IMG/VR virus record: IMGVR_UViG_3300020048_000033
Coordinates: 21,156-85,155 of that record
DNA length: 64,000 nt
Source: a virus
Lineage: Duplodnaviria > Heunggongvirae > Uroviricota > Caudoviricetes
Direction: 5' to 3' (one strand)
The stretch's first letter is position 1, and every line of letters begins with the position of its first letter. The translations under genes were made by a program, and so were the position numbers. The notes under the pieces were generated by a model. That model was given only the letters and a program-made list of their open reading frames with translations. It was not told the origin of the DNA and ran no database searches. This document shows, piece after piece, positions 13,320 through 60,687 of this stretch.

Positions 13320-13341
13320 AAATAAACCTTTGGAGGTTATT

Positions 13342-34214: not shown

Positions 34215-34279
34215 GAAATTAAATACAAGGACAGGCTGAAAAGCTTGTCCTTTTTATTTTAATGTGTTAATATAGTTGT

Positions 34280-38051: not shown

Positions 38052-38307
38052 TTTCTAATGGGGCTGAGGGGGTAATTCCTCAGCTCCTACTATTACGATT
38101 GCTTGGTGGAATTGGTAGACACACCCCTATTAACTGGGGAGGTAGAAACGTGAAACGTAAAGAACTAAAATTTCTTTGGAGTAATTGACCATAGGAGGTT
38201 TTAGGTGATAACTAAAAACAGTTTCAAATATTTTATTAAGAACTATAGATAACTTAATGGGTATTCCATTTGAGGGTTCGATACCTTCAGCAGTCATTTT
38301 TTGTTTT

Positions 38308-38388
38308 GGCGAGATGGTGTAATTGGTAGCCACGGGGGTCTTAAAAACCCCTCCTTTTAGGGTGGGGGTTCGAGTCCCCTTCTTGCCA
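38308..38388 (+). tRNA. tRNA-Leu (anticodon UAA), class II
   Basis: Acceptor GGCGAGA/TCTTGCC, D-arm GTGTAATTGGTAGCCAC, anticodon stem GGGGT/ACCCC with loop CTTAAAA, variable arm, T-arm GGGGG-TTCGAGT-CCCCT. Confidence 0.7.
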
Positions 38389-38507
38389 TGTTTAATACTT
38401 GGGGCTTTGCTGAAATTGGAAAACAGGTTTGGAGTTTTATCCAGATGGGTGGCACGACTTTCTTTGAATGTCAGTCCAGCTTTACGGTTTCAAATCCCGT
38501 AAGTTTC

Positions 38508-38554
38508 CAAGTATTAATCTTTTGGTCTTCCAGATTTTGGAAGTGGATTGAAAC
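38508..38554 (+). repeat. solitary variant CRISPR repeat unit (GGTCTTCCAGATTTTGGAAGTGGATTGAAAC) with AT-rich promoter-like lead-in
   Basis: Shares the 11-nt type I-C 5'-handle TGGATTGAAAC with the array repeat. The hairpin is replaced by CTTCCA/TGGAAG, preceded by GTATTAATCTTT. Confidence 0.55.
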
Positions 38555-42646: not shown

Positions 42647-42853
42647 ATTGTGTACTCTCTTGATAAGAGTTTAAACTTTAAGTTTTAAAACCCTAAAGGG
42701 GTGTAACTAACATATAACTAGAACTTTTTGTCCCCTCCCTACTTTAGGGAGGGTTTTATTTTAAACTTATCTTTGAATATTAATTAAGGTGTTTCTTAGA
42801 AGGTAGCTAATTTATTTTCAATACAACATATATATTTTGTTAATATAGTATCT

Positions 42854-45283
42854 ATGAATTCTATTAAACCTACTTATTTATTTCCTGAGTTAGTGGCACA
42901 CCCTCCATCAAATGACAATCCTGTTAGTCAGTCTTTAGAAGAACACTTACAAGGGACTAATGAATATGCTTTATCCTTTTGTCAAAGTGAAACAGACAAG
43001 GCTTTAGTGTCTCCAATAGCTCTTGGACATGACATTGCAAAAACAACAACTTGGGTTAAAGAACATTTATGTCCTAGCTGTTGGTCTAAAAATAAAGACT
43101 TAAACCGATGTAAAGGGTGTGGATTAAAAAACCCTACTGGAAAGGATAGCCGACAAATATATCATTCACCTTATGGGGTTTTATATATGTTACTTAATTC
43201 TGTAACATCAGAGGGAAAAAAAATATTTGATATAAATCGTCTCAGAACGGAAGAGTGGGTATATTATAATATTGTGGGAGGACACCATGGAGGTTTAATG
43301 GATACTGACACTATTCAACAGAGAGTTCTTGAGATGATGTCAGATCCTAACACCCCAAATATTTTGAAAGAGATAGATTCTTTTGTAAAGTCTACAAATA
43401 TTTCTACTTCTCCAACAATTAAGTTTCCTTATAATAGGGATGATACCTTCTTTGATTTCTTTATAAAAATTAAAGAGGTATTTTCAATTCTTTGTGATGC
43501 TGACTCTTTAGATACTGAGGGACACAGTTCTCCTTCTAAAAAAGATTTTAGAAAACCCCCTAAAATTGAATGGACAAACCTTTTACAATGCTTAGATGAA
43601 TATTATTTAACTCTTTCTTTGGATGAAAACGGTAAACAAAAAAAGAGTAAGTGGAAACAAAAAAAACTTAATAAGCTTAGAAATGAATTAAGAGTGTATT
43701 CCGATAAAATTGCTTCTGCTTTTTCAAGAGGATATTTTTCAATGGAGTTTCCTACAGGGTTTGGTAAAACACTGGCAAGTATTTCTTTTGCTCTTAATCA
43801 TGCAATAAATATTGAAAAGAGAGGTGAAAGACCCATTAAAAGAATTATTTATGTCCTCCCCTTTTTGACAATAACTGCACAGACCACAAATGTACTTAAA
43901 GAGGTTTTTGGTGACGATATTAACATTTTAGAGCATCACACAGGGGCAGAATATGCTCTTAATGGTGATGATAGGAAATCTGAATATGAGCAAGCAACTT
44001 CTGATAAGGATAAAAGAAAAATACTGGCAACAGAGAATTGGGATTACCCTATAATTGTTACCACGGATGTTCAATTTTTTGAATCCGTTATGTCTGCTAA
44101 TAGAGGTTCTTCTCGTAAGATTCATAACATAGCTGATTCTATTGTTATCCTAGATGAAATACAAGTTATCTCTAACTCACTTTGGGCACCCACAATTGAA
44201 ATTCTTAAATCACTTAACAAAGTTTTAAATACTTCTATACTTTTTACTTCTGCTACTATGCCAGCATTTTCTTGGGAAAACCAGAAGTTAAAGTTTGATG
44301 GAGTTACCTCTTTAGTTGAAGATAAACAAACTCTTTATAGAAACAGCGTTCGAGTAAAATACCATGTACTTAACAATCTAAAGCCTCTTACCATTAATGA
44401 ATTAAGTACAAGGATTTTTAAGGAAAAGGGTTCCACTTTATTGGTGCTTAATACTAGGAGAACAGCTTTTGGGGCATATAGAGAACTGTGTAAGTTAAAC
44501 TCTAATAATAAATGGGATAAAATAATTTATTTAAATACCGTATTAAACTCTAAGCATCGTATGAACCTTATTAATTCTATTAAAAAAATACTGAAAGATG
44601 ATAAGTTAAAAATATTGGTTGTATCTACTCAACTGATTGAAGCCGGTGTAGATTTAGATTTTTATAATGTTTTTCGTAAAATAGCCCCATTAGAATCCCT
44701 TATTCAAAGCTCAGGAAGATGCAATAGAGAGTGGAAATATCCTTATGGGAATGTTTACATTTTTGATATTATTGATACTTTTAAGTGTGATCCTTGGTCA
44801 GACAGCTACATAGAGAGAATAGCAATAGTAGTTAATTTACTAAGAAGAACAAACTTTCTTAAATATTTTAGCCCCTTTGATTTAGGTAAATTACATAAGA
44901 GTGATATCTATGAGGAATATCATAAAAAATGCTTTTCTATTATGAGTTCTGATAAAAATAAGGTTCTAACTTCCATAAAAGCTTGCAACTTTAAAACAGC
45001 ATCTAATAATTATAAAATAATAGATTCTGAGACATCAGGGGTTGTAGTACCTTATGGAGACCTAACTTTAGATGAATATGAATATTATAGAAATAAAGAA
45101 ACAATCACAAGGGCAGACCTTAGACGACTTCAACCATATATGGTTTCTTTATTTGAGGGTGACTTAAAGAAGGTAGAAGGGATACAAATTGTAAGGACTG
45201 TAGGGAATTTATTAATGCTCAGTAAAAACCATTTGAATTGTTATAGTGAGGAAACAGGCTTATCTAATTTAATTTTTAATTAG
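42854..45283 (+). CDS. cas3: Cas3 (HD nuclease + SF2 helicase), type I
   Basis: N-terminal HD domain (HPPS...LEEHL...ALGHDIAKTT...GGHHGG), helicase motif I FPTGFGKT, motif II VILDEIQ, motif III TSATMP, C-terminal helicase lobe. 809 aa. Preceded by TTGTTAATATAGT. Confidence 0.85.
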   Translation: MNSIKPTYLFPELVAHPPSNDNPVSQSLEEHLQGTNEYALSFCQSETDKALVSPIALGHDIAKTTTWVKEHLCPSCWSKNKDLNRCKGCGLKNPTGKDSRQIYHSPYGVLYMLLNSVTSEGKKIFDINRLRTEEWVYYNIVGGHHGGLMDTDTIQQRVLEMMSDPNTPNILKEIDSFVKSTNISTSPTIKFPYNRDDTFFDFFIKIKEVFSILCDADSLDTEGHSSPSKKDFRKPPKIEWTNLLQCLDEYYLTLSLDENGKQKKSKWKQKKLNKLRNELRVYSDKIASAFSRGYFSMEFPTGFGKTLASISFALNHAINIEKRGERPIKRIIYVLPFLTITAQTTNVLKEVFGDDINILEHHTGAEYALNGDDRKSEYEQATSDKDKRKILATENWDYPIIVTTDVQFFESVMSANRGSSRKIHNIADSIVILDEIQVISNSLWAPTIEILKSLNKVLNTSILFTSATMPAFSWENQKLKFDGVTSLVEDKQTLYRNSVRVKYHVLNNLKPLTINELSTRIFKEKGSTLLVLNTRRTAFGAYRELCKLNSNNKWDKIIYLNTVLNSKHRMNLINSIKKILKDDKLKILVVSTQLIEAGVDLDFYNVFRKIAPLESLIQSSGRCNREWKYPYGNVYIFDIIDTFKCDPWSDSYIERIAIVVNLLRRTNFLKYFSPFDLGKLHKSDIYEEYHKKCFSIMSSDKNKVLTSIKACNFKTASNNYKIIDSETSGVVVPYGDLTLDEYEYYRNKETITRADLRRLQPYMVSLFEGDLKKVEGIQIVRTVGNLLMLSKNHLNCYSEETGLSNLIFN

Positions 45284-45335
45284 CCCCTTATTTATCTATA
45301 TTTCTTGTTCCAGAAACTGCTAAAATAATTAGTGA

Positions 45336-45382
45336 AAAAGTTTTGAACTTTTCCTGAATATCCTATATATTATATAGGTAGA
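45336..45382 (+). promoter_or_regulatory. class A promoter-like motif, copy 5 (between cas3 and cas5c)
   Basis: AAAAAGTTTTGAACTTTTCCTGAATATCCTATATATTATATAGG. Confidence 0.5.
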
Positions 45383-45481
45383 GTTCTATTGAATATTAAA
45401 CCTCAATACACTTAATTAAACAAATGTACTTGTCAAAAATATGTCAAGTACATTATACACTCTAAAAAGGATTAAACTTAA

Positions 45482-46156
45482 ATGAATGCAATATCCTCAA
45501 AATATGGTGCTCTTAAATCAAGGGTAGAGCTTGTGGCTTATGGAGAAAACGCTTGCTTTAAGGACCCAGTATGGAAAACAGAGGGTCTTACCTACCCATG
45601 TATCACCCCATCGGCTTCAAGAGCTATACTAGAGTCGGTGTTTTGGCATCCTCCGATGTATTATGATATTGTGTCAATAGAGGTTTTAAAGCCTATAATA
45701 AAAACACTGACCTGTGTAGTTGAACCCAATACCTATGGTATAGACGGAGTTTTGAGACACTATATGTATCTAAGAGATGTATCCTATCATATTGTTGCTG
45801 ATATAGTTATGAAGAATGGTGTCACAATAGATGAAAATAAAAATGCAATAAAGTATATGAGTATTTTTAATAGGAGACTACAGAAAGGTCAAACTTTTAA
45901 GGCTCCTTTCCTCGGAATAAGTCAATGCTTATGTGATGTTAGGGAATATGTTCCTCTTGAGGATATCCCTACAAAAGAAAATTATTATATAGGAAATATG
46001 CTATTAGAGATGAATCATAAAAAATCTGGGGTAGAGCCAATATTTATGGATGAGGCTCAAATAAAAAATGGCGTACTTTGTAATGGGGAACAGTCCCTTG
46101 AAGACGCCATACTAGAAAAAACATCTTATAGAAAAGAGGAAGTGTATATTGCGTGA
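45482..46156 (+). CDS. cas5c: Cas5c (Cas5d) crRNA-processing subunit, type I-C
   Basis: Family-conserved blocks VELVAYGENACFKDP, ASRAILESVFWHP, HYMYLRDVSYHIVADI, FKAPFLGISQC align with Cas5d. Confidence 0.8.
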   Translation: MNAISSKYGALKSRVELVAYGENACFKDPVWKTEGLTYPCITPSASRAILESVFWHPPMYYDIVSIEVLKPIIKTLTCVVEPNTYGIDGVLRHYMYLRDVSYHIVADIVMKNGVTIDENKNAIKYMSIFNRRLQKGQTFKAPFLGISQCLCDVREYVPLEDIPTKENYYIGNMLLEMNHKKSGVEPIFMDEAQIKNGVLCNGEQSLEDAILEKTSYRKEEVYIA

Positions 46157-48128
46157 ACTTTATGATTTTTACAAGGTGTATTCCACTACTGAAACTTTCA
46201 AGGAAAATTACGACAGTAGTATTTGGTTTGATAGAGGTACGCCCTCAGCAATTATTGATATTGATAAGAACCATAAGACTACCTTCCTACCACTTGGAGG
46301 AGACTCAGCTAAACTTCATCGTAGAGAATTCTTCCCGGGGAAAGGTACAAGATTTTCATTAGATGCTACTAAAAGGGTTTTAGGTGGTATTGAGGTTAAT
46401 GACAAGGACGGTTCTTTTACTTTTGAAGAAAACTTTGGGTCGGAAGTTTTATCTCAGGTAACAGCTATATTAAAGTATAAAAATTATTTCTTAGATAATC
46501 TTTCTCTTTTTACAAAAAAAGAAGTTTTAGTAGCACAGGAAATTTTTGATGCAATACTTTCAATATATGTAAGTCCTAAGTGTAAAGATTTTTCTGATAT
46601 TAAGGTTTCAAAAACCTTAAAGAAACTAAGAAAAGATTTCTGCACCCATTTTAAGGATGATAAAAATGTTGAAGGTAAACTTATAGGTATCTCTTATCAA
46701 GGAGAGCTAATTCTTGAAAATAAAGTAATTTCCAAGATTGTAGAGAGTTTTAAAGAGTATGAGTTGGGTCTTATAAATAAGAAAACTCCTTTTAGAAATT
46801 GTCCCATTTGTAAAAAAAACACAAACCTTTATAATATTAATTCCTATGGGGCTATAAGAAAAAGTTTACTAGGTGGAAGTATTAATGGGTGTTTTCCCAT
46901 TAGTTACAATGAACCACAATTTGAGTCTTATGGAATGAAAGGTAACTTAAACTCATCAATTTGTTATGATTGTGGAAAAAAAATTGTAAGGTCTTTAGAA
47001 ATACTTTGTGGGATAGACAAAATATATGTCCCCTTCAAGAACTCTAAAGGTGAAGACAAGTTAAAGCCCTCATTTAAGGAGACTCGTTTCAGATTGGATG
47101 TCCGTGGCGCAAATGAATATGCTATTCTGGTATATGCGACAGATGCTAATGGGAGAGTCTTGGATATGACTAAAGAAATATCCTTAGATACTGTTAGAGA
47201 AGTTGATTTGAAATTAGATGAGTCCTCTATTATTTCTTCCTATAAAAGTTTAAATGATAGTAGTTCTTCCAGTGAAGCAATAATCCCACTTAATATTACA
47301 GCCAATATTCTTGTGGTAGCATCAAATAGTGCAAGAATGGTAATAAGAGATCATTGTTGTATTAATCTTAATAGCTTAAGGAGTTCCATTTCTCGTTGGA
47401 GGGAAGCTACCCAAGGACAAACCTTTGAGGGATATGTTGATGCTAAAGGAAACCAAAAATGGAGGGCTATAAAATATTATCCTTCACTTAATACTATCTT
47501 AGAAAACTTAGGTGCTTTTGGTAAAAATGATAAAGTTTATTATTCTGTAATAGATACAGTTCAACAAATGGTGTTTCGTGGAATAACTGAAAATATTTCT
47601 TTTAAGGATACAATACTTAATAACATTCAATCCTCTTTCTTTACAAGAGGGGATAGACAGTATGAAATATCTAAGGATTCATTCTGTGTTGTACGTTTGG
47701 TTTATAATGCGGGTAAGAATAAGGAGAGTTTGATGAGTCCGAGTCTTGATGAGACTAATGAAAAAATGGGGTATCTTTTTGGGAGAGCTTTTTCTATAGC
47801 ATCTTCTATTATGTATCATGTAAATGATAAAGATACTTATGGTATTGATTCTCTTTATGATCAATGTTTGTCACAACCTAAATTGGCTATAGAAAACATA
47901 ACCAGTTCTTTAATGTATTATGTATCTAAGGGTAAAAAAGACCCTGATATAGGATTTTTTATTGTATCCCTTCACAATAAGTATATGGAACTTATTTCTA
48001 AAGCATTGCAGGTGGGAGTTCCTATCATAATGAAACAGGACGATAAACTACTTTTTATTGGTGGAATGTGTTCACAAAATATGTATAATAAAACTGGTGG
48101 AAAAACCACTAAAGTAAAGGAAGACTAA
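46149..48128 (+). CDS. cas8c: Cas8c (Csd1) large subunit, type I-C
   Basis: 659-aa ORF overlapping the cas5c stop by 8 nt, in the position and with the size expected for Cas8c. Internal CxxC...CxxC zinc-finger-like pairs. Confidence 0.65.
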   Translation: MRELYDFYKVYSTTETFKENYDSSIWFDRGTPSAIIDIDKNHKTTFLPLGGDSAKLHRREFFPGKGTRFSLDATKRVLGGIEVNDKDGSFTFEENFGSEVLSQVTAILKYKNYFLDNLSLFTKKEVLVAQEIFDAILSIYVSPKCKDFSDIKVSKTLKKLRKDFCTHFKDDKNVEGKLIGISYQGELILENKVISKIVESFKEYELGLINKKTPFRNCPICKKNTNLYNINSYGAIRKSLLGGSINGCFPISYNEPQFESYGMKGNLNSSICYDCGKKIVRSLEILCGIDKIYVPFKNSKGEDKLKPSFKETRFRLDVRGANEYAILVYATDANGRVLDMTKEISLDTVREVDLKLDESSIISSYKSLNDSSSSSEAIIPLNITANILVVASNSARMVIRDHCCINLNSLRSSISRWREATQGQTFEGYVDAKGNQKWRAIKYYPSLNTILENLGAFGKNDKVYYSVIDTVQQMVFRGITENISFKDTILNNIQSSFFTRGDRQYEISKDSFCVVRLVYNAGKNKESLMSPSLDETNEKMGYLFGRAFSIASSIMYHVNDKDTYGIDSLYDQCLSQPKLAIENITSSLMYYVSKGKKDPDIGFFIVSLHNKYMELISKALQVGVPIIMKQDDKLLFIGGMCSQNMYNKTGGKTTKVKED

Positions 48129-48129
48129 A

Positions 48130-49191
48130 ATGGCAAAAGCAAAAGCAAAAGAACCTGAACAGGAAGTTGAAATACTTAAAGATGAAGAGTTTTTCGCCAC
48201 CAATGGAGAACTTGTAAACAACCGGTATGATATTATGATTTTAGTGGAAGCTATTAACTCAAATCCAAGTGGTGACCCCGGTAATGGAGGGAAACCTCGT
48301 ATAGACCATAACGGTCGTGGAGAATGGGAGAATACTTCTTTAATTTATAAAATAAAGACAAGGATAGAAATCCTTGCAGAACAGAAAGGTTGGAAAGGTT
48401 TTAATCGCCTTGTAAAAAAAGGTAGTATTATTTCTGAGGGTTTGAAGCAATTCTCAAAATATGGCTCAGATATAAATCTTCAACAGCGCAAAGTGGTAGA
48501 TACCTTTTTTGATATAAGGATGTTCGGAGGTATGCTCAGAACAAAGGATGGAAAATCTTCTACTCCAGAGGACAAAACTTCCGAAATTAAAAAAGAAGAT
48601 TCTGGTAAAAAAACTGTAGAAAAGGGTGGACAGGGTTGCGGTACCTTAACTGGTTCAATCCATTTCTGCAAAGGTGTTTCTATTGATCCAGTGATTGTAA
48701 AAACTACCCGTATTACTCGGGTATGTGCTTCAAATCCTGAAAGGCTAAGAGGAATCAGAAAAGAGGATTATACTGAGATGGGTGAAAACTCTGTAGTTCA
48801 TTATGGTCTTTATCAATTTAAGGGTAGTATCGATCCTATTCAGTCCCAAAAAAGCTTTTTTACTAAAAAAGATTGCAAAATCTTTTTTAGAAGTTGTGCC
48901 TCTTTTACAAAGCACGATGCAAGTTCTATTAGAGGGGAGCTTAATATTCGTAGAGTTATTATCTGGAAACATGATAGTATCTTAGGTAGTACTCCTAAAA
49001 ATCAGAACTTTAATAGACTTAAAATTGCCCTCAAGGATGGAATTGATTCTCCTGAAAAGTATGAGGACTATAATATAGCTCTCGATCTTGAGAACCTTAG
49101 CCCCCATCTTAGTGTCATTGATATCAATGATAAAGAGATTGCGGAAGCTTGGGATGATGAAACTCTTGACTTTGATAAAAACTTTATGTAA
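48130..49191 (+). CDS. cas7c: Cas7c (Csd2) backbone subunit, type I-C
   Basis: NRYDIMILVEAINSNPSGDPGNGGKPRIDH matches the Cas7/Csd2 N-terminal glycine-rich signature. 353 aa. Confidence 0.85.
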   Translation: MAKAKAKEPEQEVEILKDEEFFATNGELVNNRYDIMILVEAINSNPSGDPGNGGKPRIDHNGRGEWENTSLIYKIKTRIEILAEQKGWKGFNRLVKKGSIISEGLKQFSKYGSDINLQQRKVVDTFFDIRMFGGMLRTKDGKSSTPEDKTSEIKKEDSGKKTVEKGGQGCGTLTGSIHFCKGVSIDPVIVKTTRITRVCASNPERLRGIRKEDYTEMGENSVVHYGLYQFKGSIDPIQSQKSFFTKKDCKIFFRSCASFTKHDASSIRGELNIRRVIIWKHDSILGSTPKNQNFNRLKIALKDGIDSPEKYEDYNIALDLENLSPHLSVIDINDKEIAEAWDDETLDFDKNFM

Positions 49192-49203
49192 CTTTTTGAG
49201 TAA

Positions 49204-49256
49204 ATTGGAGTTATTTTTATTAAGTGCGAACCTACTGTTACCAGAAAATCCCTTGG
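49204..49256 (+). promoter_or_regulatory. leader-region stem-loop (GTGCGAACC...GGTTCGCAC) between cas7c and the array
   Basis: 9-bp inverted repeat. A second GAGGTTCGCACTAAG copy lies 70 nt downstream. Could be the cas-operon terminator/attenuator or a leader structure. Confidence 0.3.
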
Positions 49257-49367
49257 AGGTTCGCACTCCTTGCCCTGTATAGACTTAGGTGATTTTATAT
49301 TAAAAAACTTGGTTACAAACTATCATAATTCTGAGGTTCGCACTAAGTATAGGGTAAGTCTATATCA

Positions 49368-49389
49368 TGTAAGGGTTTATATATTAGTA
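49368..49389 (+). promoter_or_regulatory. array promoter-like element (AAGGGTTTATATATTAGTA) abutting repeat 1
   Basis: Same GGTT(A/T)ATATA..TTAGTA motif that precedes every variant-repeat unit. Confidence 0.4.
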
Positions 49390-50956
49390 GTCACTCCCCG
49401 TGCGGGGGTGTGGATTGAAACTTTTGAGGTAGCACTGACAGAACCAATTAGAGATGTCACTCCCCGTGCGGGGGTGTGGATTGAAACCTTGCTAATACAT
49501 TCAACTTTTCAACATCAAGTGTGTCACTCCCCGTGCGGGGGTGTGGATTGAAACAAGCTGTCCAACTTTGCCCTCATCCTTTGTTGGTCGTCACTCCCCG
49601 TGCGGGGGTGTGGATTGAAACTTGGGTGGTATTGGTTCAGCAATCGGCGCTTTGTGTCACTCCCCGTGCGGGGTGTGGATTGAAACTAAAAAGAAATGGA
49701 AAACCCGTTGACACCACAGAGTCACTCCCCGTGCGGGGGTGTGGATTGAAACTTTCAGGAACAAGACCCACAAGGTACGATTGGAAAAGTCACTCCCCGT
49801 GCGGGGGTGTGGATTGAAACTAACTCTCACCTTTTTTCAGCCGGTTTCACAATTGGTCACTCCCCGTGCGGGGTGTGGATTGAAACTCATACAGTGTTGC
49901 TCTGGTTGCACCTCTACACACAGTCACTCCCCGTGCGGGGGTGTGGATTGAAACAAGGAACTGAAAAATGACTTTCGAGATTTGAGGGCGTCACTCCCCG
50001 TGCGGGGGTGTGGATTGAAACCTTGGGGCAAAGTATTTCCCTTGTAGCGATTGAAAGTCACTCCCCGTGCGGGGGTGTGGATTGAAACGTGTATCACTCG
50101 AAAGTACAACATGGTTGTGTAAGTCACTCCCCGTGCGGGGGTGTGGATTGAAACTGAAATGGGTGGACTCGGGGAAATACTCACTAAAGTCACTCCCCGT
50201 GCGGGGGTGTGGATTGAAACGAGTAAGTAGCAGGACAGGGGTTTTCTTTTGTGTAAGTCACTCCCCGTGCGGGGGGTGTGGATTGAAACGAGTTTGACAC
50301 CGACCTAGTTACCCTTGAACTCACGTCACTCCCCGTGCGGGGGTGTGGATTGAAACAACTCGAATCCCCGTTTGTATTTGGATTTTAGCAAGTCACTCCC
50401 CGTGCGGGAGTGTGGATTGAAACTACTCAGTTGATGGACTCTATTGGCAAGGTACTCGTCACTCCCCGTGCGGGAGTGTGAGAGCTGAGTAATAAAACTA
50501 AGTGTTAATATAATATTAGTACTGGTCTTCCTAATTTTGGAAGTGGATTGAAACCCTTTAAGTTCCCCATGCATCATACAAATAAACATGTCACTCCCCG
50601 TGCGGGGGTGTGGATTGAAACCACTACAAAGACGGGCGAGTCAGACAGAATCCGGTGTCACTCCCCGTGCGGGGGTGTGGATTGAAACTAAGTAGTTATT
50701 GGATTCCGCTTAGAATCATTAATGTCACTCTCCGTGCGGGAGTGTGGATTGAAACCGAATATCAGGTATGGATATCATCGAGGCATTAGTGTCACTCCCC
50801 GTGCGGGGGTGGGGATTGAAACCAAGCCGTTGTTCAAGCTTTGCAGGATTCCAAGGTGTCACTCCCCGTGCGGGAGGTGTGGATTGAAACATGACTGGTT
50901 TAGCTGTAATTAATGGGTCGAAGAGTCACTCCCCGTGCGGGAGTGTGGATTGAAAT
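49390..50956 (+). CRISPR. type I-C CRISPR array, 23 repeats (GTCACTCCCCGTGCGGGGGTGTGGATTGAAAC, 31-33 nt) and 22 spacers of 33-36 nt; repeat 17 (50448-50554) interrupted by a 73-bp promoter + variant-repeat insertion
   Basis: Repeat starts at 49390, 49456, 49523, 49590, 49656, 49721, 49789, 49856, 49923, 49990, 50057, 50123, 50189, 50257, 50325, 50392, 50448 (split), 50590, 50657, 50724, 50791, 50858, 50925. Terminal ATTGAAAC is typical of I-C repeats. Distal repeats accumulate variants (GGGAGTG, CTCCG, TGGGG, terminal GAAAT). Confidence 0.9.
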
Positions 50957-50992
50957 GTAATATCAGAGGATAGTCTGTAATATTTTCTTAAT

Positions 50993-51020
50993 CACCACAA
51001 TCCTCTTGGGATTGTGGTGA
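50993..51020 (+). terminator. perfect 10-bp stem-loop (CACCACAATC-ctcttgg-GATTGTGGTG) after the last array repeat
   Basis: Inverted repeat seen directly in the sequence. No strong T-tract follows. Confidence 0.3.
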
Positions 51021-51054
51021 AGATGTGTAAGTGAAATTAAAATTAGGGTTAATA

Positions 51055-51420
51055 TAATATCAGTATTGGTCTTCTAGAAATTAGAAGTGGATTGAAACAG
51101 TACACAAGTCTACAAGAGTCTATTCTTCATTGTCACTTCCCGTGCGGAAGTGTGGAATTAAAATTAGTATTAATATAATATTAGTACTGGTCTTCCAGAA
51201 TTTGGAAGTGGATTGAAACGAGGCAAATACTCAACTTATATCTGGGACTGTGCGTCACTCCCAGTGGTGGAGTGTGGATTGAAACGATGCCATGGTCAAC
51301 AAAATGGATTTAGACCTGAGTCACTCCCCCCGTGAGGGAGTGTGGATTTTAATACGATATAATGAATCAGATAGGGTGCTAATGATAAGTCACTCCCGTG
51401 CGGGAGTGACGTTAATCAAA
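51055..51420 (+). CRISPR. two degenerate mini-arrays, each starting with a promoter-like element and a variant repeat, followed by spacers and decayed canonical repeats
   Basis: Unit A: promoter TTAGGGTTAATATAATATCAGTA, variant repeat at 51078-51108, spacer, degenerate repeat GTCACTTCCCGTGCGGAAGTGTGGAATTAAAAT at 51142-51174. Unit B: promoter TTAGTATTAATATAATATTAGTA, variant repeat at 51189-51219, then degenerate repeats at 51254, 51320 and 51389. Confidence 0.65.
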
Positions 51421-53097: not shown

Positions 53098-53373
53098 ATG
53101 CTTGAGTTTTTAAAAAAGAAAAAGAAAATTATACCTGTGAGAAGTGGAGCCTATTGTAGATGTAGTATATGCACTCATGTAGGATATGCGTATGGCATTG
53201 CTTCAAGTGAAGTAGGGGTGAGTCATCCAAGTTGCGCTGTATGTGGATTTAACATGGGACTTGTTCAAATTCAACCCTTTCAAGAGTGTACATGCAAATC
53301 CTGCAAGTTGAAAAAGAAACTTAGGGTTAATATAAGTATCTGTCTTCCAGAAATTGGAAGTGGATTGAAATGA
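53098..53373 (+). CDS. hypothetical Cys-rich protein (3' end runs into a solitary repeat unit; boundary uncertain)
   Basis: Multiple CxxC pairs. The ORF stop lies inside the variant repeat at 53343-53371. Confidence 0.2.
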   Translation: MLEFLKKKKKIIPVRSGAYCRCSICTHVGYAYGIASSEVGVSHPSCAVCGFNMGLVQIQPFQECTCKSCKLKKKLRVNISICLPEIGSGLK

Positions 53374-53476
53374 TAGAGCAAGAAGAACTTGGGCAGAAGA
53401 ATTAATGAACAAGGATATTGTGGTTGCACATTATTAATGAACGTGAGTCACTCCTGTGCGGGAGTGAGGGTTGAAA
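53322..53476 (+). repeat. solitary mini-array: promoter-like TTAGGGTTAATATAAGTATCT + variant repeat (53343-53371) + 74-nt spacer-like segment + degenerate canonical repeat (53446-53476, GTCACTCCTGTGCGGGAGTGAGGGTTGAAAT)
   Basis: Direct sequence match to the array repeat 5'-handle and hairpin. Confidence 0.55.
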
Positions 53477-53588
53477 TAGCACAGCGACTGGACAGTAAAG
53501 AAACTGGACCGGCACAAACCAATCTGATGCTCCTTACAAAAAATGTAACCGTCTGTCCCGAGTATGTTAGATTAAAAGGAATTACCGT

Positions 53589-54309: not shown

Positions 54310-54508
54310 ATTAATGGGGATGACGTAGGGTTCGATCTTAAGTGAAGTAACAGGATGCAAATGCACTAGAAAAAACGTCTTGAGTAGCTTAAGAGACTCG
54401 GGGGCAGTTCCCGACATCTCCAAATAGGGTATGATGAAAATTGTCAGATAAAAACTGATGTGGTAAACATGGAACGCAAAACGTGCTCCGTCATTAATAA
54501 TAAAACTT

Positions 54509-54556
54509 AAGGTAATATTAGTACGGGTCTTCCAAAAATTGGAAGTGGATTGAAAT
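54509..54556 (+). repeat. solitary variant CRISPR repeat unit with promoter-like lead-in (TAAGGTAATATTAGTA + GGTCTTCCAAAAATTGGAAGTGGATTGAAAT)
   Basis: Same hairpin/handle architecture as the variant repeats in the mini-arrays. No downstream repeat. Confidence 0.5.
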
Positions 54557-54658: not shown

Positions 54659-55150
54659 ATGACCCGAGATGAAATACTTGCTAAAAAGTGTGATGAGAAG
54701 TATGAAGATTTGATAAAGGTAAACTCAGCAACCTGCTGGGTAGTAGATACAAATAGAATAGAAATTAAAGAATATGCAGTAATGGGGTATGGAAGAACCT
54801 GTGTAGGAATAACCACCTCAACTAGTTCTGTTTCCAATAAGGTAACAGAGTCAAAAGTGTATGAATATCTTTTTACTGTTATTTCACTGGAAGAAGAAAC
54901 CTTTGGTCTTGAGAGTTTTGTTAGCTACGATAAAATTTTTCTCAATAAGAAATTTGCACTTATTCAATTACTGAATTCAATGATAGCAAATCTTACGTAT
55001 GAATCAAACTCAGATAAATTGTCAATTCTAACTAAGATAGGACATAGTAAACTTAACGTACTTGATGAACTTAGAGAGATTGACGACTTTGATAAAGAAG
55101 GGTTTGATACCTATTTTTATGAAAAATTAAATATAATAGAAACTGTATAA
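54659..55150 (+). CDS. hypothetical protein
   Basis: 163-aa ORF. Confidence 0.4.
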   Translation: MTRDEILAKKCDEKYEDLIKVNSATCWVVDTNRIEIKEYAVMGYGRTCVGITTSTSSVSNKVTESKVYEYLFTVISLEEETFGLESFVSYDKIFLNKKFALIQLLNSMIANLTYESNSDKLSILTKIGHSKLNVLDELREIDDFDKEGFDTYFYEKLNIIETV

Positions 55151-56989: not shown

Positions 56990-58528
56990 ATGAGAAGTAA
57001 GAGAGACAGGAGTTCTAAACAGCAATTAGGGCAGTTTATGACTCCTGATGTCTTAGCTACAAGTTTGATAGCTTCAATAGACATAAAGAAATACCAGAAA
57101 ATATTAGAGCCTAGCTTTGGAGAAGGCTCTTTTATTTTTGCCCTTATTGAAAAATTGTGTCCTTCTGTTTATTCAAGTGTCGATGAACTATTTGAGTATC
57201 TGTATGGAGTAGAACTTGACACGGAACTTTACAACAAGTTTTGTGCAAAGATTATTGATAAATATGGAAAGCTTCCTAAAGTTTTTAATTTTTTCAATTC
57301 AGACTTTTTTGATGTAGAGTTTTCCGACATAGACTTGGTTATAGGAAATCCTCCTTTCGGCGGTACAGTAAGTCCCGATATCAATAAAGAAGATCAACTG
57401 GATAATAAATATGGAAAAAGACATGGGCTTAAAATAAAAAAAGAGACTTACAGTTTTTTTTGTCTAAAGTGCATTGAGTCTTTAACTCCTACAGGTAAAT
57501 TATTTTTTATCTGTTCTGATACCTTCCTAACCGTAGCAACCCACAAGGGTTTACGTAATTATTTTATGGTGGAAGGGTTCATAGACATTAAACAATTGTC
57601 TTACTTTTCAACTGAAACTGATTATGGAATGGTTTGGTTAAACTTTAATCGAGGCGAACAAAAAGACTCAGTAATAATTAATGAGATTTCCGTTTCACTT
57701 AAAAGCATTTATTCTACTCCCAACTTGAGCTATTCAACCTCAGATTTAATAAAGTATTTTAATTCTGATTTGTTATCAAAATATCTTATATGTTCCAGTG
57801 GAATGACTATCGGAGATAACGCACTTTTTCTAAAACATAATGTTGATGGAAAGATAAACGAACAATATGAGTATGAGGTTGTGTTAGAACCTACTACCTT
57901 AGATGAAGAGATGTATAAATCAAGAACGGGTAAACTCAGTTCTGGAATTCTAAAGTCTATCTCTGACCAAGTTCCTGTCAAAAAACTTAAAGTTCTTGGG
58001 ACTGAAAAGATAATTACTTTACCACATCCTGATTATTTCCCCTATAATAAAATGGGTAAAGAATCTGGTGTAGTTGTAAACCCTACTACCTACATCTATT
58101 GGAAGGATGATGGTGATGCCGTTAAGACTTTTAAGAGAAATGGTAAATGGTATCTTCATGGCATTGGTGGAGAAAAGTTTTTCAAACGAGAGGGTTTGAC
58201 TTGGAATCTTATTTCAAGTAAGTTTGAGATTAAATATTTACCTGAGGGATTTATTTTGGATTCTGGTAGACCTTGTGCTTTCTTGAAAAGTGGTGTACCT
58301 AAGGATGAAATCTATTATATTTTTGCTTGGCTTAGTTCTGATTTGTGTAGGAAAATACTCAAAGAGGTTATAAACCATACAAGAAATATTCAGTCAAAAG
58401 ATATAGAAAGACTTCCCTATATTGTAAGTCCTTCTAAGCAAGAAATTATTGATAAAACCAAACAATTGTTTTCTGGATTACTTGAACAAAAAGATTATTT
58501 CATATACATTAATGAAACCTTTTACTGA
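56990..58528 (+). CDS. N6-adenine DNA methyltransferase (gamma-class, Eco57I/TaqI-like), no partner endonuclease evident
   Basis: LGQFMTP (FxTP), motif I PSFGEGSF, motif IV VIGNPPFGG (NPPF). 512 aa. Confidence 0.65.
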   Translation: MRSKRDRSSKQQLGQFMTPDVLATSLIASIDIKKYQKILEPSFGEGSFIFALIEKLCPSVYSSVDELFEYLYGVELDTELYNKFCAKIIDKYGKLPKVFNFFNSDFFDVEFSDIDLVIGNPPFGGTVSPDINKEDQLDNKYGKRHGLKIKKETYSFFCLKCIESLTPTGKLFFICSDTFLTVATHKGLRNYFMVEGFIDIKQLSYFSTETDYGMVWLNFNRGEQKDSVIINEISVSLKSIYSTPNLSYSTSDLIKYFNSDLLSKYLICSSGMTIGDNALFLKHNVDGKINEQYEYEVVLEPTTLDEEMYKSRTGKLSSGILKSISDQVPVKKLKVLGTEKIITLPHPDYFPYNKMGKESGVVVNPTTYIYWKDDGDAVKTFKRNGKWYLHGIGGEKFFKREGLTWNLISSKFEIKYLPEGFILDSGRPCAFLKSGVPKDEIYYIFAWLSSDLCRKILKEVINHTRNIQSKDIERLPYIVSPSKQEIIDKTKQLFSGLLEQKDYFIYINETFY

Positions 58529-59231: not shown

Positions 59232-59702
59232 GCAAGTTCACTCTCTACAGTTGATGATGATGGTATCCCCTCCCTCCCATATTGTCATCATCAACTGTTT
59301 TTTAAGAAACCTTTATTCAAAAACCTAACTGGAGCTGTAAATGAAAATGTATCTATTTTTTATTATCCTATCTGTAGGATTCCTGTTTATCGAAGATATT
59401 ACCAAGATATCACCAATCGAATTCACCTCAGAATATGTTCTCTTTGTTGAAAGAAAATACGTTCTAATCTAAAAGTATTGTTAATATAATTGTATATCAT
59501 TCCAATGTAATGTTGGGTTGAAATAGTGTTCGCAATTCTCGCCCAGTTAAGTTTGGACGATTGAGCACAAAATAATACTACACCAGTCCTAGGAAACCTG
59601 TAGTTGCTTGTGGAAAGAGACAAATACGTTCGGAGTAATTGCCAAACTAATAGTTTCAAGAAGGATGTTAAAATCCGACCTCAGCGTAGTTGCGAATTAT
59701 TG

Positions 59703-59775
59703 CGAGGGTAGCTCAGTTGGTTAGAGCAGAAATCTTATAAGTTTAAGGTCGATGGTTCAATTCCATCCTCTCGCA
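59703..59775 (+). tRNA. tRNA with anticodon UAU (Ile-type), anticodon region contains palindrome CTTATAAG
   Basis: Acceptor GCGAGGG/CTCTCGC, D-arm GCTCAGTTGGTTAGAGC, loop CTTATAA, T-arm GATGG-TTCAATT-CCATC. Anticodon stem has only 4 of 5 pairs. Confidence 0.5.
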
Positions 59776-59964
59776 TCAGGTGTTTTGCAGTATCAAATAA
59801 CTGCACGAGTTTCCCTGCGAAGTTGGACGGGTTCTTTAAGATGTTTTCGTTGTCGTTAGGAAGGAAAACTCACTAAGCCGATTATTCAGAGTCTTTGCAA
59901 GGACTAGCTTAAAAGAGTTTAGGATATTGGTAGCAGTAGATACTGAGTCGAGACTATCACTGAT

Positions 59965-60036
59965 GCGCTTATCATATAGCGGATATTATGTCGGTTTACG
60001 AAACCGATCACGTTGGTTCGATTCCAGCTAGGCGCA
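59965..60036 (+). tRNA. tRNA-Arg (anticodon ACG)
   Basis: Acceptor GCGCTTA/TAGGCGC, anticodon stem TCGGT/ACCGA with loop TTACGAA, T-arm GTTGG-TTCGATT-CCAGC. Confidence 0.6.
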
Positions 60037-60060
60037 ATTTCAAAAAGGAGTTTCTTGAAC

Positions 60061-60465
60061 ATGATCAAACAGGTACTAATTGTAAACAAGAAATTGGGTA
60101 TGGGGCGTGGAAAAGTTGGGTCACAATGCGGTCACGGAGCAACAAAAGTTTTTTTCGACCGAGGAACTATCACAGAAGTAAAGGATAATGTAGAAGCACC
60201 TTACATGATGCACATTCCTCTTACCAAAGAAATGCACGAATGGGTTAAGGGTATTTTTACCAAAATTGTTTTGTATGTAAACTCCGATGAAGAACTTCGT
60301 GAATTGAAAAGACGGGCTGATGAAATGGGGATTGTAAATGCTATCATTGAGGATTGTGGTCTTACTGCATTTCATGGTATACCTACAAGAACTGTTCTTG
60401 CAATTGGCCCAGACAATGCAACTAGGATTGATTCGTTGACCAGTGGACTTCCACTTCTCAACTAA
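60061..60465 (+). CDS. peptidyl-tRNA hydrolase, PTH2 family
   Basis: GMGRGKVGSQCGHGA matches the PTH2 G-M-G-K-G-K-I-A-A-Q-C-S-H-A active-site motif. C-terminal TVLAIGPDNATRIDSLTSGLPL matches the PTH2 end. Start placed at MIKQVLIV, because the longer ORF overlaps the tRNA-Arg. Confidence 0.6.
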   Translation: MIKQVLIVNKKLGMGRGKVGSQCGHGATKVFFDRGTITEVKDNVEAPYMMHIPLTKEMHEWVKGIFTKIVLYVNSDEELRELKRRADEMGIVNAIIEDCGLTAFHGIPTRTVLAIGPDNATRIDSLTSGLPLLN

Positions 60466-60482
60466 TTATATTTAAGTAAGAT

Positions 60483-60554: not shown

Positions 60555-60687
60555 ATAGTATTTGTAGGACATATGGTTGATGCCATTTGATTAGAAAAAT
60601 AACCTTTCTATTCTAACTACTTATACTAATTATTTATCTTTCGTTGCATCAACAACGAAGTAAATCTAAAGGTAAAAGAAGGTTATT

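What the first reader, a model, noticed from the sequence alone, without database searches (positions are those of the whole stretch)
42854..51420. Phage-borne minimal type I-C CRISPR-Cas locus (cas3-cas5c-cas8c-cas7c + array) with no adaptation genes
Cas3, Cas5c, Cas8c and Cas7c are encoded contiguously and are followed within 200 bp by a 23-repeat array. The repeat GTCACTCCCCGTGCGGGGGTGTGGATTGAAAC is of the I-C type. No cas4, cas1 or cas2 lies anywhere in the ~6 kb upstream or ~13 kb downstream. The surrounding context (homing endonucleases, tRNA clusters, repeated phage promoters) is phage-like, not bacterial chromosome. Phage-encoded interference-only CRISPR systems can be used against competing phages or host defence islands. 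A complete I-C effector in a phage would be notable. The operon is driven by the phage's own promoter class (45336-45382).
Basis: partly seen in the sequence, partly recalled or inferred. Interest (0 to 1): 0.9.

Follow-up and report, generated by a model that had tools for sequence, protein, structure and literature searches.

The report
Phage-borne type I-C CRISPR-Cas locus
A large bacteriophage carries an intact-looking CRISPR weapon (Cas3, a type I-C Cascade and 25 guides) but no genes for acquiring new guides, which is already known from huge phages; the unusual part is that several guides have their own phage promoter and a private 'starter' repeat.

Summary
cas3 (42854-45283), cas5c, cas8c and cas7c (to 49191) are contiguous and match type I-C models. 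An array starts 198 bp downstream. No Cas1, Cas2 or Cas4 homologue was found in the 64-kb window or in about 10 kb further downstream. The context is a large phage: about 30 tRNAs, homing endonucleases, a helicase closest to Lak megaphages, and nearly every gene on one strand.

The novelty claim is overstated. Interference-only CRISPR-Cas is the norm in huge and jumbo phages (PMC7162821, PMC13037316), and IMG/VR already holds cas3-cas5c-cas7c loci without adaptation genes.

Three things are new:
- The Cas proteins form a deep clade. Only two sister clusters reach 41-45% identity; one sits beside a tail-fibre-like gene.
- The repeat and the leader architecture match bacterial (Bacillota) I-C arrays, although the Cas proteins are under 30% identical to theirs.
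- The array is four transcription units. Three begin with a phage promoter-like box plus a variant 'starter' repeat: a different hairpin with the same 11-nt handle. Three more starter units lie solitary elsewhere in the window.

No spacer target was found, so what the system attacks is unknown.

The parts
42733..42763 (+). Intrinsic-terminator-like hairpin plus T-run that closes the upstream unit before cas3
   Evidence: 9-bp stem with 6 G-C pairs, then TTTTATTTTA; sequence.
42839..42849 (+). Class-2 promoter-like box GTTAATATAGT, 4 nt before the cas3 ATG; a possible leaderless cas3 mRNA
   Evidence: There are nine exact copies of GTTAATATART, all on the + strand. The same box sits 3 nt before the helicase ATG at 34280. 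Promoter function is inferred from the motif only.
42854..45283 (+). cas3: fused HD nuclease and SF2 helicase, 809 aa
   Evidence: The translation shows the HD motifs intact (H31, H59-D60 in LGHDIAK, H104, H144-H145, D215/D217), helicase motif I PTGFGKT and motif II DEIQ.
45339..45371 (+). Class-1 phage promoter element (TTGAAC, 17 nt, TATATT) upstream of cas5c
   Evidence: There are six exact copies of the 20-nt core in the window, inside a roughly 50-nt near-invariant element.
45482..46156 (+). cas5c: Cascade subunit and the pre-crRNA endonuclease of type I-C
   Evidence: TIGR01876 108.8 bits, above the 85 cutoff. (solved I-C Cas5 structures 8g9t, 3kg4, 3vzi, 4f3m; E 1e-15 to 1e-22).
46149..48128 (+). 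cas8c, the large subunit (659 aa), very divergent
   Evidence: TIGR01863 E=4.6e-18, below cutoff. (PF09709). Outside the sister clade the nearest relatives are about 25% identical. It is 36% identical to the L011 Cas8c.
47733..48128 (+). Candidate internal cas11c: a 131-aa small subunit translated from inside cas8c
   Evidence: an in-frame ATG with AAGGAGA 5 nt upstream. Internal translation of Cas11 from cas8c in type I-C is from my own knowledge of the literature. It is not tested here.
48130..49191 (+). cas7c, the Cascade backbone (353 aa)
49192..49389 (+). CRISPR leader. It carries GCGAACC at -164 and GGTTCGC at -132 and -55 from repeat 1. It ends in a class-2-like box (GGGTTTATATATTAGTA).
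   Evidence: Two Paenibacillus I-C leaders carry the same motifs at -166, -134 and -56.
49390..50480 (+). Sub-array 1: 16 canonical repeats, spacers S1-S16, and a 17th repeat cut after its hairpin, with no handle (50458-50480)
50504..50956 (+). Sub-array 2: class-2 box (50504-50514), starter repeat A (50524-50554), spacers S17-S22, six canonical repeats; the last repeat ends GAAAT
50993..51019 (+). 11-bp hairpin (CACCACAATCC / GGATTGTGGTG) between sub-arrays 2 and 3; its role is unknown and there is no T-run
   Evidence: Sequence.
51048..51163 (+). Sub-array 3: class-2 box (51048-51058), starter repeat B (51068-51098), spacer S24, terminal repeat whose stem is kept by compensatory changes (CACTTCC/GGAAGTG) but whose handle has decayed
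51169..51410 (+). Sub-array 4: class-2 box (51169-51179), starter repeat C (51189-51219), S25, repeat (51254-51285), S26, degenerate repeat (51320-51353), and a hairpin-only remnant (51389-51410)
38524..38554 (+). Solitary starter unit (hairpin plus TGGATTGAAAC) in the gap between tRNA-Leu and ORF 38684
   Evidence: covariance model 54 bits, E=3e-13.
53326..53477 (+). Solitary mini-array: class-2 box (53326-53336), starter unit (53341-53371), a 75-nt 'spacer', and a degenerate canonical repeat (53447-53477)
   Evidence: The region is left non-coding by the gene calls on L001.
54526..54556 (+). Solitary starter unit about 100 nt upstream of ORF 54659-55150, behind a degenerate class-2-like box (54505-54520)

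Best explanation
This is a type I-C CRISPR-Cas interference module that has long been resident in a large, probably lytic phage of a Bacillota host.

**Shown by sequence and HMMs**
- cas3, cas5c, cas8c (with a candidate internal cas11c) and cas7c are intact.
- Nuclease and helicase motifs are in place.
- 25 spacers lie in one orientation behind a leader.

**Inferred mechanism**
- Cas5c cuts each repeat at the 3' base of its hairpin. This leaves crRNAs with the 11-nt handle UGGAUUGAAAC.
- Cascade (Cas5c, Cas8c, Cas11c, Cas7c) uses those crRNAs to find DNA, and Cas3 degrades it.
- The most likely targets are competing phages or other mobile elements in the same host.

**Inferred array organisation**
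- The array is read as four transcription units. The leader-driven unit has 16 spacers.
- The other three units have 6, 1 and 2 spacers. Each starts with a phage class-2 promoter-like box followed within about 10 nt by a 'starter' repeat.
- A starter repeat keeps only what an RNA needs to be cut and loaded: a short hairpin abutting the handle.
- Terminal repeats keep only the hairpin. This fits selection acting on the RNA rather than on DNA integration.

**Inferred source of new spacers**
- The phage has no adaptation genes in the stretch examined.
- Its canonical repeat is identical to bacterial I-C repeats, and its leader motifs sit at the same distances.
- New spacers are therefore probably added in trans by a host Cas1-Cas2-Cas4, or the canonical part was captured from a host array.

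**Solitary starter units**
- The three solitary units most likely make extra, hard-wired Cascade-bound RNAs. Their targets are unknown.
For: **Cas identity and integrity**
- HMM, structure-sequence and translation results.
- Candidate internal cas11c.

**Array anatomy**
-.

**Starter units**
- There are six copies. All fold as a hairpin followed by exactly 11 unpaired nt, as the canonical repeat does.
- One copy has a compensatory change in the stem: CTTCT/AGAAG against CTTCC/GGAAG.
- A covariance model separates them from canonical repeats (51-55 bits against 15-20 bits). It finds none in bacterial arrays with the same repeat or in eight IMG/VR I-C loci.

**Promoter-like boxes**
- TTAGKRTTAATATART gives 8 hits against 1.2 expected. 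Five of the six starter units have such a box directly upstream: four among these hits, plus a degenerate copy upstream of sol54 seen by eye.

**Sister locus L011**
- Same gene order, 36-53% identity, no cas4, cas1 or cas2 called, and a tail-fibre-like neighbour.
- Its repeats have different hairpins but a conserved handle.

**Link to host-type arrays**
- The identical repeat occurs in Lachnospiraceae, Paenibacillus and Bacillota genomes.
- Leader motif spacing is conserved.
- The Cas proteins are only 26-29% identical to the Paenibacillus ones, and Cas8c is barely detectable.
- The cas genes have the phage's own low G+C content.

**Phage context**
-.

**Absence of Cas1, Cas2 and Cas4**
-.

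**Precedent in the literature**
-.
Against: - No spacer target was found anywhere. I searched the window, GenBank phages, plasmids, IMG/VR with two spacers and the other loci held. Target class and PAM are therefore unknown.
- There are no expression or processing data. Both promoter classes rest on motifs alone.
- Cas8c and Cas7c score below the curated NCBIfam cutoffs.
- Cas5c catalytic residues were not mapped.
- Only about 74 kb of a contig of at least 143-164 kb was examined. Adaptation genes could lie elsewhere.
- A second assembly of the same strain (L001) joins repeat 1 directly to spacer 19. Either the population is heterogeneous or one assembly is wrong.
- Four repeats differ by one G in the G-run (49656, 49856, 50257, 50858). 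These could be sequencing errors.
Confidence: 0.75

Rival explanations
1. The solitary starter units (38524, 53341, 54526), and perhaps the in-array ones, are RNA anti-CRISPRs of the Racr or solitary-repeat-unit kind. Highly expressed repeat mimics would soak up the host's type I-C Cas5c and Cas7c and blunt host immunity against this phage.
For: Solitary repeat units directly behind promoters in phage genomes are the defining picture of Racrs, and a type I-C Racr has been shown to work (PMC10651486). The units carry the exact handle of a repeat that occurs in Bacillota genomes. Two of the three have no recognisable downstream repeat.
Against: The phage has its own I-C Cascade, which such decoys would also titrate. 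The same unit clearly serves as the first repeat of three mini-arrays that carry normal spacers and normal downstream repeats. The hairpin differs from the host-type repeat that a mimic would be expected to copy. No acr-like gene was recognised next to the units.
Confidence: 0.15
2. The solitary units and the one- or two-spacer mini-arrays are regulatory crRNA-like guides of the CreR, crlRNA or scaRNA kind. Partial complementarity would let Cascade repress a phage or host promoter without cleaving it.
For: Mini-arrays with a degenerate distal repeat are common regulators in type I loci and occur in phages (10.1101/2023.03.03.530964). Unit 53341 has that architecture. Unit 54526 lies in the 5' region of a gene.
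Against: No PAM-flanked seed match of 10 nt or more was found for any of these spacers in the 64-kb window, including the cas promoter regions. Full-length matches are at the level of shuffled controls. Host targets could not be searched.
Confidence: 0.15
3. The canonical array is a piece of a host array picked up by recombination. It is now a decaying, non-functional passenger, and the variant and degenerate repeats are simply decay.
For: The repeat and leader are host-like while the Cas proteins are not. The distal repeats are degenerate. No targets were found.
Against: All four cas ORFs are intact with catalytic motifs. Degenerate repeats keep their hairpins through compensatory changes, and starter units keep an exact handle. 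Starter units are coupled to promoter-like boxes. The sister phage locus shows the same pattern of variable hairpin and conserved handle.
Confidence: 0.1
4. The region is not phage. It is a bacterial chromosome island, prophage remnant or plasmid carrying an ordinary type I-C system whose adaptation genes lie just outside the window.
For: No virion structural gene lies inside the window itself. The repeat is identical to bacterial ones.
Against: The window has 28-31 tRNA genes, homing endonucleases and two families of near-identical promoter elements. Almost every gene is on one strand. The helicase is closest to Lak megaphages, and a DNA polymerase A module lies just downstream. No bacterial housekeeping gene is present. 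The cas genes have the element's own G+C content. In canonical I-C loci cas4-cas1-cas2 sit between cas7c and the array, as in L005. Here that gap is a 198-bp leader.
Confidence: 0.04

Closest known systems
CRISPR-Cas systems of huge or jumbo phages (Al-Shayeb et al. 2020, PMC7162821; jumbo-phage survey PMC13037316)
   Same: Both are phage-encoded, lack Cas1, Cas2 and Cas4, and have repeats similar to those of host arrays. Both are presumed to be used against competing phages or host genes. A Cas5d-containing 'type I-C variant' was reported there.
   Different: The reported I-C variant has an unrelated helicase in place of Cas3; this locus has a full HD-helicase Cas3. The array here has 25 spacers, against a median of six repeats in that study. 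Promoter-plus-starter-repeat modules are not described there.
Canonical bacterial type I-C (Dvulg) systems, for example Neisseria lactamica (PDB 8g9s-8g9u), Bacillus halodurans Cas5d (4f3m), and the Paenibacillus locus L005
   Same: Gene order cas3-cas5c-cas8c-cas7c. No cas6. A 32-nt repeat ending ATTGAAAC with a hairpin that leaves an 11-nt handle. A candidate internal cas11c. A leader with the same motifs at the same distances.
   Different: There is no cas4-cas1-cas2 between cas7c and the array. The Cas proteins are under 30% identical, and Cas8c is hardly alignable. The array is broken up by internal promoter-like boxes and variant repeats. cas3 appears to be a separate transcription unit.
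Vibrio phage ICP1 type I-F system (Seed et al. 2013, as cited in PMC7162821)
   Same: A lytic phage that carries a complete type I interference machinery with arrays and uses it offensively.
   Different: ICP1 is subtype I-F and does carry cas1 and a cas2-3 fusion, so it acquires spacers itself (from my own knowledge). Its target, a host PLE island, is known. Here the target is unknown.
Solitary repeat units and RNA anti-CRISPRs (Racr; Camara-Wilpert et al. 2023, PMC10651486)
   Same: A single repeat-like hairpin directly behind a promoter in a phage genome, outside any array. A type I-C example (RacrIC1) exists.
   Different: Racrs are described as not associated with cas genes and often sit beside acr genes. 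Here the phage has its own cognate cas genes, and the same unit also heads real mini-arrays. No acr neighbour was recognised.
Regulatory mini-arrays and crRNA-like RNAs (Shmakov et al. 2023, 10.1101/2023.03.03.530964), and virus-borne mini-CRISPR arrays (Medvedeva et al. 2019, PMC6858448)
   Same: Units of one or two spacers with a degenerate distal repeat, sometimes in viruses.
   Different: Regulatory mini-arrays have a spacer that partly matches a nearby promoter, and none was found here. Virus-borne mini-arrays rely on host Cas proteins; here the virus brings its own.

Membership tests
Type I-C CRISPR-Cas (interference module) | Cas3 with fused HD nuclease and SF2 helicase | tested here: met
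   cas3_core 132 bits (cutoff 102); HD model 37 bits (cutoff 43); PADLOC Cas3c 2e-142; PDB type I-C Cas3 1e-54. HD and helicase motifs were read in the translation.
Type I-C CRISPR-Cas (interference module) | Cas5c (Cas5d) present and no Cas6 in the operon | tested here: met
   TIGR01876 108.8 bits, above the 85 cutoff. The four cas genes are contiguous, with no further ORF between them. Cas5c catalytic residues were not mapped.
Type I-C CRISPR-Cas (interference module) | Cas8c (Csd1) large subunit | tested here: inconclusive
   TIGR01863 E=4.6e-18 but 65 bits against a cutoff of 219. Pfam PF09709 is on record. The family signal is clear, but the protein is far outside the curated range.
Type I-C CRISPR-Cas (interference module) | Cas7c (Csd2) backbone subunit | tested here: met
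   TIGR02589 E=5.5e-41 (141 bits; the exception-level cutoff of 182 is not reached). PADLOC Cas7c 8e-44. 1361 Cas7-family relatives at E<=0.001.
Type I-C CRISPR-Cas (interference module) | Small subunit Cas11c made by internal translation within cas8c | tested here: inconclusive
   An in-frame ATG at 47733 with an AAGGAGA Shine-Dalgarno sequence would give 131 aa. Translation was not tested.
Type I-C CRISPR-Cas (interference module) | 32-nt repeat ending ATTGAAAC whose hairpin leaves an 11-nt 5' handle | tested here: met
   The identical repeat lies next to cas8c-cas7c-cas4-cas1-cas2 in Paenibacillus.
Complete (adaptive) type I-C locus | cas4-cas1-cas2 adaptation module | tested here: not met
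   No hit with the Paenibacillus Cas4, Cas1 or Cas2 in the window plus L002 and L003. The rest of the contig could not be read.
Phage-encoded CRISPR-Cas | Locus embedded in a phage genome | tested here: met
   tRNA arrays, homing endonucleases, PHROG hits, a Lak-like helicase, a DNA polymerase A module, and genes on one strand. No virion gene was seen within the 74 kb. The sister locus adjoins a tail-fibre-like gene.
Racr / solitary repeat unit | Repeat-like hairpin outside arrays, directly downstream of a promoter | tested here: met
   Units at 38524, 53341 and 54526. Promoter-like boxes lie upstream of two of them.
Racr / solitary repeat unit | Not associated with cas genes; inhibits the cognate CRISPR-Cas system | tested here: not met
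   The element encodes its own cognate cas genes. Inhibition is not testable with these tools.
Regulatory mini-array (CreR / crlRNA-like) | Spacer partly complementary, with a PAM, to a promoter it represses | tested here: not met
   No PAM-flanked seed match in the window. The host genome and the rest of the phage were not searchable.

The most novel reading that the evidence does not exclude
The phage runs a two-tier guide system.
- **Tier one** is a host-compatible leader-and-repeat array. It is extended in trans by the host's Cas1-Cas2-Cas4 during infection.
- **Tier two** is a set of hard-wired guide genes. Each has its own phage promoter and a private 'starter' hairpin with the universal 11-nt handle. 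These evolve without any integrase and are recognised by the phage's own, very divergent Cas5c.
- **Solitary starter units** elsewhere in the genome would turn ordinary phage transcripts into Cascade-bound RNAs, for regulation or as decoys.

Together with the sister locus L011, where every repeat has a different hairpin but the same handle, this would define a phage-specific type I-C lineage in which the 'repeat' has been reduced to an RNA-processing signal.
Probability: 0.3. Interest if true: 0.75.

Novelty: new variant of a known kind. Interest (0 to 1): 0.5.

Why it matters
Phage-borne, interference-only CRISPR-Cas is established, so the locus on its own adds one more, very divergent, example.

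What could matter is the array design.
- **Minimal RNA signal.** Promoter-plus-starter-repeat modules, and repeats that keep only a hairpin and the handle, show what the minimal RNA signal for type I-C processing and loading may be. They also show how guides can be maintained and expressed individually without an adaptation machinery. That is useful for compact multiplexed type I-C (Cas3) editing tools.
- **Borrowed adaptation.** The contrast between bacterial-type repeat and leader and Cas proteins under 30% identical makes a direct test possible of whether phages borrow host Cas1-Cas2-Cas4 to update their own arrays.

Tried and rejected
**Spacer targets: nothing found**
- Ungapped scan of all 25 spacers and 3 pseudo-spacers against the window: at the level of shuffled controls.
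- PAM-anchored seed scan of the window: nothing.
- blastn of all spacers against 50,697 phage records and 72,556 plasmids: no match at E<=1.
- IMG/VR exact seed patterns for S1 and S17: none.
- Phage spacers against the other loci held, and bacterial spacers from L004-L008 against the phage: only chance matches of 16 nt or less.

**Relatives of the phage or of its repeat units: little found**
- Near-identical DNA in GenBank phages: none.
- The canonical repeat in IMG/VR: none.
- The starter-unit pattern in IMG/VR: none.
- The same pattern in metagenomes: only two short contigs with single look-alike units, not informative.
- Rfam: tRNAs only, no CRISPR family hit.

**Searches that could not answer the question**
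- I scanned all ORFs against PADLOC through an alignment id to look for Cas1, Cas2 and Cas4. The output lists only 25 of 107 families, so it cannot show absence. I replaced it with tblastn and phmmer.
- L001's shorter array cannot be taken as evidence of spacer turnover. It is the same strain, its contig ends fall on repeated promoter elements, and the join of repeat 1 to spacer 19 may be an assembly shortcut.

**Ideas rejected**
- Amber-codon reassignment, suggested by the CTA tRNA: TAG ends 7 of 66 ORFs, and the split polA is not bridged by TAG. There is no support in this window.

Full report

Yes. Four ORFs on the + strand run without interruption:
- 42854-45283 (809 aa)
- 45482-46156 (224 aa)
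- 46149-48128 (659 aa)
- 48130-49191 (353 aa)

Their family matches are as follows.
- The first matches cas3_core above the curated cutoff. The Cas3 HD model scores just below its cutoff.
- The second matches the type I-C Cas5c model above cutoff.
- The third matches Cas8c/Csd1 at E=4.6e-18, far below cutoff.
- The fourth matches Cas7c/Csd2 at E=5.5e-41, below cutoff (all).
- PADLOC gives Cas3c 2e-142, Cas7c 8e-44 and Cas5c 2e-39.
- Solved type I-C proteins are the best structural relatives by sequence.

The Cas3 translation shows the HD motifs (LGHDIAK, GGHHGG, CDADSLD) and helicase motifs I (PTGFGKT) and II (DEIQ).

An in-frame ATG at 47733 has AAGGAGA 5 nt upstream. It would give a 131-aa C-terminal product. 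This fits the internally translated Cas11c of type I-C systems, which I know from the literature and did not test here.

**2. The array**

The array begins at 49390, 198 bp after cas7c. The repeat folds as a 7-bp hairpin followed by exactly 11 unpaired nt, UGGAUUGAAAC, which is the type I-C handle. The locus is not a plain array. It has four parts:

1. **49390-50480.** Sixteen canonical repeats with spacers S1-S16. A 17th repeat stops right after its hairpin.
2. **50504-50956.** A box GTTAATATAAT comes first. Ten nt later there is a variant repeat, GGTCTTCCTAATTTTGGAAG+TGGATTGAAAC. Spacers S17-S22 follow with six canonical repeats.
3. **51048-51163.** The same box and a variant repeat, one spacer (S24), and a terminal repeat. 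Its stem is kept by paired changes (CACTTCC/GGAAGTG), but its handle has decayed.
4. **51169-51410.** Box, variant repeat, two spacers (S25, S26), degenerate repeats that keep their stems, and a final hairpin with no handle.

The whole locus holds 25 spacers and about 30 repeat-derived elements.

**3. Starter units**

The variant repeat differs from the canonical one in its stem and loop. It keeps GTC at the 5' end and the exact handle, and it folds with the same geometry. One copy has a compensatory stem change, CTTCT/AGAAG.

The 12-mer GTGGATTGAAAC, allowing one mismatch, also occurs four times outside the array, against 0.5 expected for the whole window. Three of these carry the same variant hairpin: 38524-38554, 53341-53371 and 54526-54556.

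A covariance model of the unit scores the six copies at 51-55 bits and canonical repeats at 15-20 bits. It finds no further copy in the 10 kb beyond the window, in five bacterial loci with the same repeat, or in eight IMG/VR I-C loci.

The three solitary units differ in what follows them.
- Unit 53341 has the promoter-like box upstream and a degenerate canonical repeat 75 nt downstream. It is a mini-array in a stretch that gene callers leave non-coding.
- Unit 54526 lies about 100 nt before an ORF.
- Unit 38524 lies between a tRNA and an ORF.

**4. Promoter-like elements**

There are two classes.

*Class 1* is a roughly 50-nt near-invariant element containing TTGAAC, 17 nt, then TATATT. Its 20-nt core occurs six times exactly, all on the + strand, against 0.02 expected. 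One copy precedes cas5c.

*Class 2* is GTTAATATART. There are nine exact copies, all on the + strand. They sit in these places:
- 4 nt before the cas3 ATG, after a clean terminator
- 3 nt before the helicase ATG
- before genes at 51463 and 54091
- before the starter units

The extended form TTAGKRTTAATATART gives 8 hits against 1.2 expected. The last 20 nt of the leader resemble it.

On motif evidence alone, cas3 and all guide units would share one promoter class, and the Cascade genes would use another. No transcription data exist.

**5. Is it a phage?**

The evidence points to a large phage.
- The window has 28-31 tRNA genes, including a CTA-anticodon tRNA.
- It has GIY-YIG and HNH homing endonucleases, a Ro/TROVE-like protein, and an SPFH protein.
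- It has a DinG/XPD-type helicase whose best phage matches are Lak megaphages and a 462-kb uncultured phage, at 36-39% identity.
- Virtually all genes are on one strand. The one long exception is a TnpB.
- A DNA polymerase A module lies just downstream.
- G+C content is even at 31-38% outside the array, and the cas genes share it.
- The source contig is at least 143-164 kb.
- No close relative exists in GenBank phages.

No virion gene lies within the roughly 74 kb I could read. Phage identity is therefore strongly supported but not proven.

**6. Adaptation genes**

In the Paenibacillus locus L005, which has the identical repeat, cas4, cas1 and cas2 sit between cas7c and the leader. Using those three proteins, tblastn and phmmer found nothing in the window, in L002 or in L003. 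In the phage, the gap between cas7c and the array is just the 198-bp leader. The remainder of the contig could not be read with the tools allowed.

**7. Relationship to bacterial type I-C**

The exact repeat occurs in a Lachnospiraceae MAG (42 copies), in Paenibacillus sp. MMS18-CY102, and in a Bacillota MAG.

The phage leader aligns with those leaders. It carries GCGAACC at -164 and GGTTCGC at -132 and -55. The two Paenibacillus arrays have the same motifs at -166, -134 and -56.

The Cas proteins tell a different story.
- The phage Cas3, Cas5c and Cas7c are only 26-29% identical to the Paenibacillus ones, and Cas8c is barely detectable.
- Among 1.84 billion representative proteins, Cas7c has only two relatives above 40% identity.
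- Among 5.8 billion proteins, the Cas8c relatives returned by the word-indexed search were all about 25% identical.
- The L011 Cas8c is 36% identical.

So the RNA and DNA signals are host-type, while the proteins belong to an old, separate lineage. The simplest reading, which is an inference, is that the repeat and leader are held constant because they must be read by a host adaptation complex, or because the canonical block was captured from a host array.

**8. The sister locus**

One of the two close Cas7c relatives lies on L011, a 13.7-kb contig with these features:
- cas3-cas5c-cas8c-cas7c in the same order, 36-53% identical to the window's proteins
- no cas4, cas1 or cas2 called
- a 1592-aa tail-fibre-like gene nearby

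Upstream of its cas3 and downstream of its cas7c lie short arrays whose repeats have different hairpins. Examples are AGCGCCCCC/GGGGGCGCT, AAGGCGGGCC/GGCCCGCCTT and GCGCCTC/GAGGCGC. Each abuts a conserved TGGATTGAAAC or TGGGTTGAAAY handle, and the terminal units keep only the hairpin.

This independently supports the view that, in this phage lineage, only hairpin-plus-handle is under selection.

**9. What the system targets**

This is unknown. I searched the window, GenBank phages, PLSDB, IMG/VR (two spacers) and all the loci held, and nothing matched. That is common for environmental phages, but it leaves the biological role inferred.

**10. Comparison with what is known**

- Al-Shayeb et al. 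state that almost all huge-phage CRISPR systems lack Cas1, Cas2 and Cas4. They describe a type I-C variant with a helicase in place of Cas3, and they note repeats shared with hosts.
- A 2026 jumbo-phage survey says the same.
- IMG/VR holds cas3-cas5c-cas7c loci without detectable Cas1, Cas2 or Cas4 on viral contigs of 90-346 kb.

The headline of the finding is therefore a known kind.

- Solitary repeat units behind promoters are known as Racrs, including a type I-C one.
- Mini-arrays with degenerate distal repeats are known as regulators.

In seven full-text literature searches I did not find a description of such units serving as promoter-proximal first repeats inside a phage's own array. Nor did I find a type I-C lineage whose repeats vary in hairpin but not in handle. 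The searches were limited, so this is a cautious claim.

**11. Verdict**

The locus is best filed as a divergent, phage-specific variant of interference-only type I-C. It has an unusual segmented array that is probably transcribed from several promoters, and it has scattered starter units. Interest is moderate, at 0.5.

Noticed in passing
window 9409-31136, 38307-38389, 59701-62699: There are 28 tRNA genes by ARAGORN. Rfam gives 28 hits, a few at other positions. They include a CTA-anticodon (amber suppressor type) tRNA at 28768-28839 and two with odd anticodon loops (19740, 22401). TAG still ends 7 of 66 ORFs, so this window shows no sign of stop-codon reassignment.
   Followed up: partly
window 17118-18392 (-): The only long minus-strand gene is a TnpB / IS605 OrfB-type protein (Pfam Cas12f1-like_TNB and OrfB_IS605; PHROG transposase). 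It is a second, unrelated RNA-guided-nuclease family in the same phage. I did not look for its guide RNA.
   Followed up: no
window 6269, 19411, 36824, 45339, 56233, 58579 (+): Six copies of a roughly 50-nt near-invariant promoter element (AAAGTTTTGAACTTTTCCTGAAwATCCTATATATTATATA). It is probably one temporal class of phage promoters. Short-read contigs of the same phage break at these copies.
   Followed up: partly
window 34266-34282 and 42839-42856: The GTTAATATAGT box ends only 3-4 nt before the ATG of the helicase gene and of cas3, with no Shine-Dalgarno sequence. This suggests leaderless mRNAs or mis-called start codons.
   Followed up: no
window 32691-34214: A Ro60/TROVE-like protein (DUF2828 and DUF7788; PHROG 'RNA-binding protein', E=4e-135) lies next to the tRNA clusters. 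A partner Y-RNA-like gene might be nearby.
   Followed up: no
window 13300-14340: A metallo-beta-lactamase-fold protein has a sub-threshold match to the anti-Pycsar nuclease Apyc1 (41 bits against a cutoff of 50). It is a possible counter-defence gene.
   Followed up: no
window 38395-38500: A tRNA-like fragment (GGTTTCAAATCCCGTAAG resembles a T-arm) lies between tRNA-Leu and the solitary starter unit. It was not called by ARAGORN or Rfam.
   Followed up: no
L001 4040-4075 against window 49390-50723: A second assembly of the same strain (100% identical flanks) joins repeat 1 directly to spacer 19. It therefore lacks 18 spacers and the first internal promoter module. This is either a real deletion variant or an assembly shortcut.
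   Followed up: partly
L002 2020-5040: DNA polymerase A is split into two ORFs 12 nt apart (the first ends in TAA, then an in-frame TAG) just downstream of the window.
   Followed up: partly
L009 455-610: On an unrelated 1.2-kb metagenome contig, a sigma-70-like promoter is followed by a starter-like hairpin plus GTGGATTGAAAA, then about 35 nt, then a terminator hairpin. It looks like a stand-alone type I-C crRNA-like or Racr-like gene.
   Followed up: no
window 56990-58528 and 60688-61752: An Eco57I-type N6-adenine methylase and a DUF559 / REase_MTES_1575 endonuclease-like protein lie downstream of the CRISPR locus. They are possible further DNA-conflict genes.
   Followed up: no
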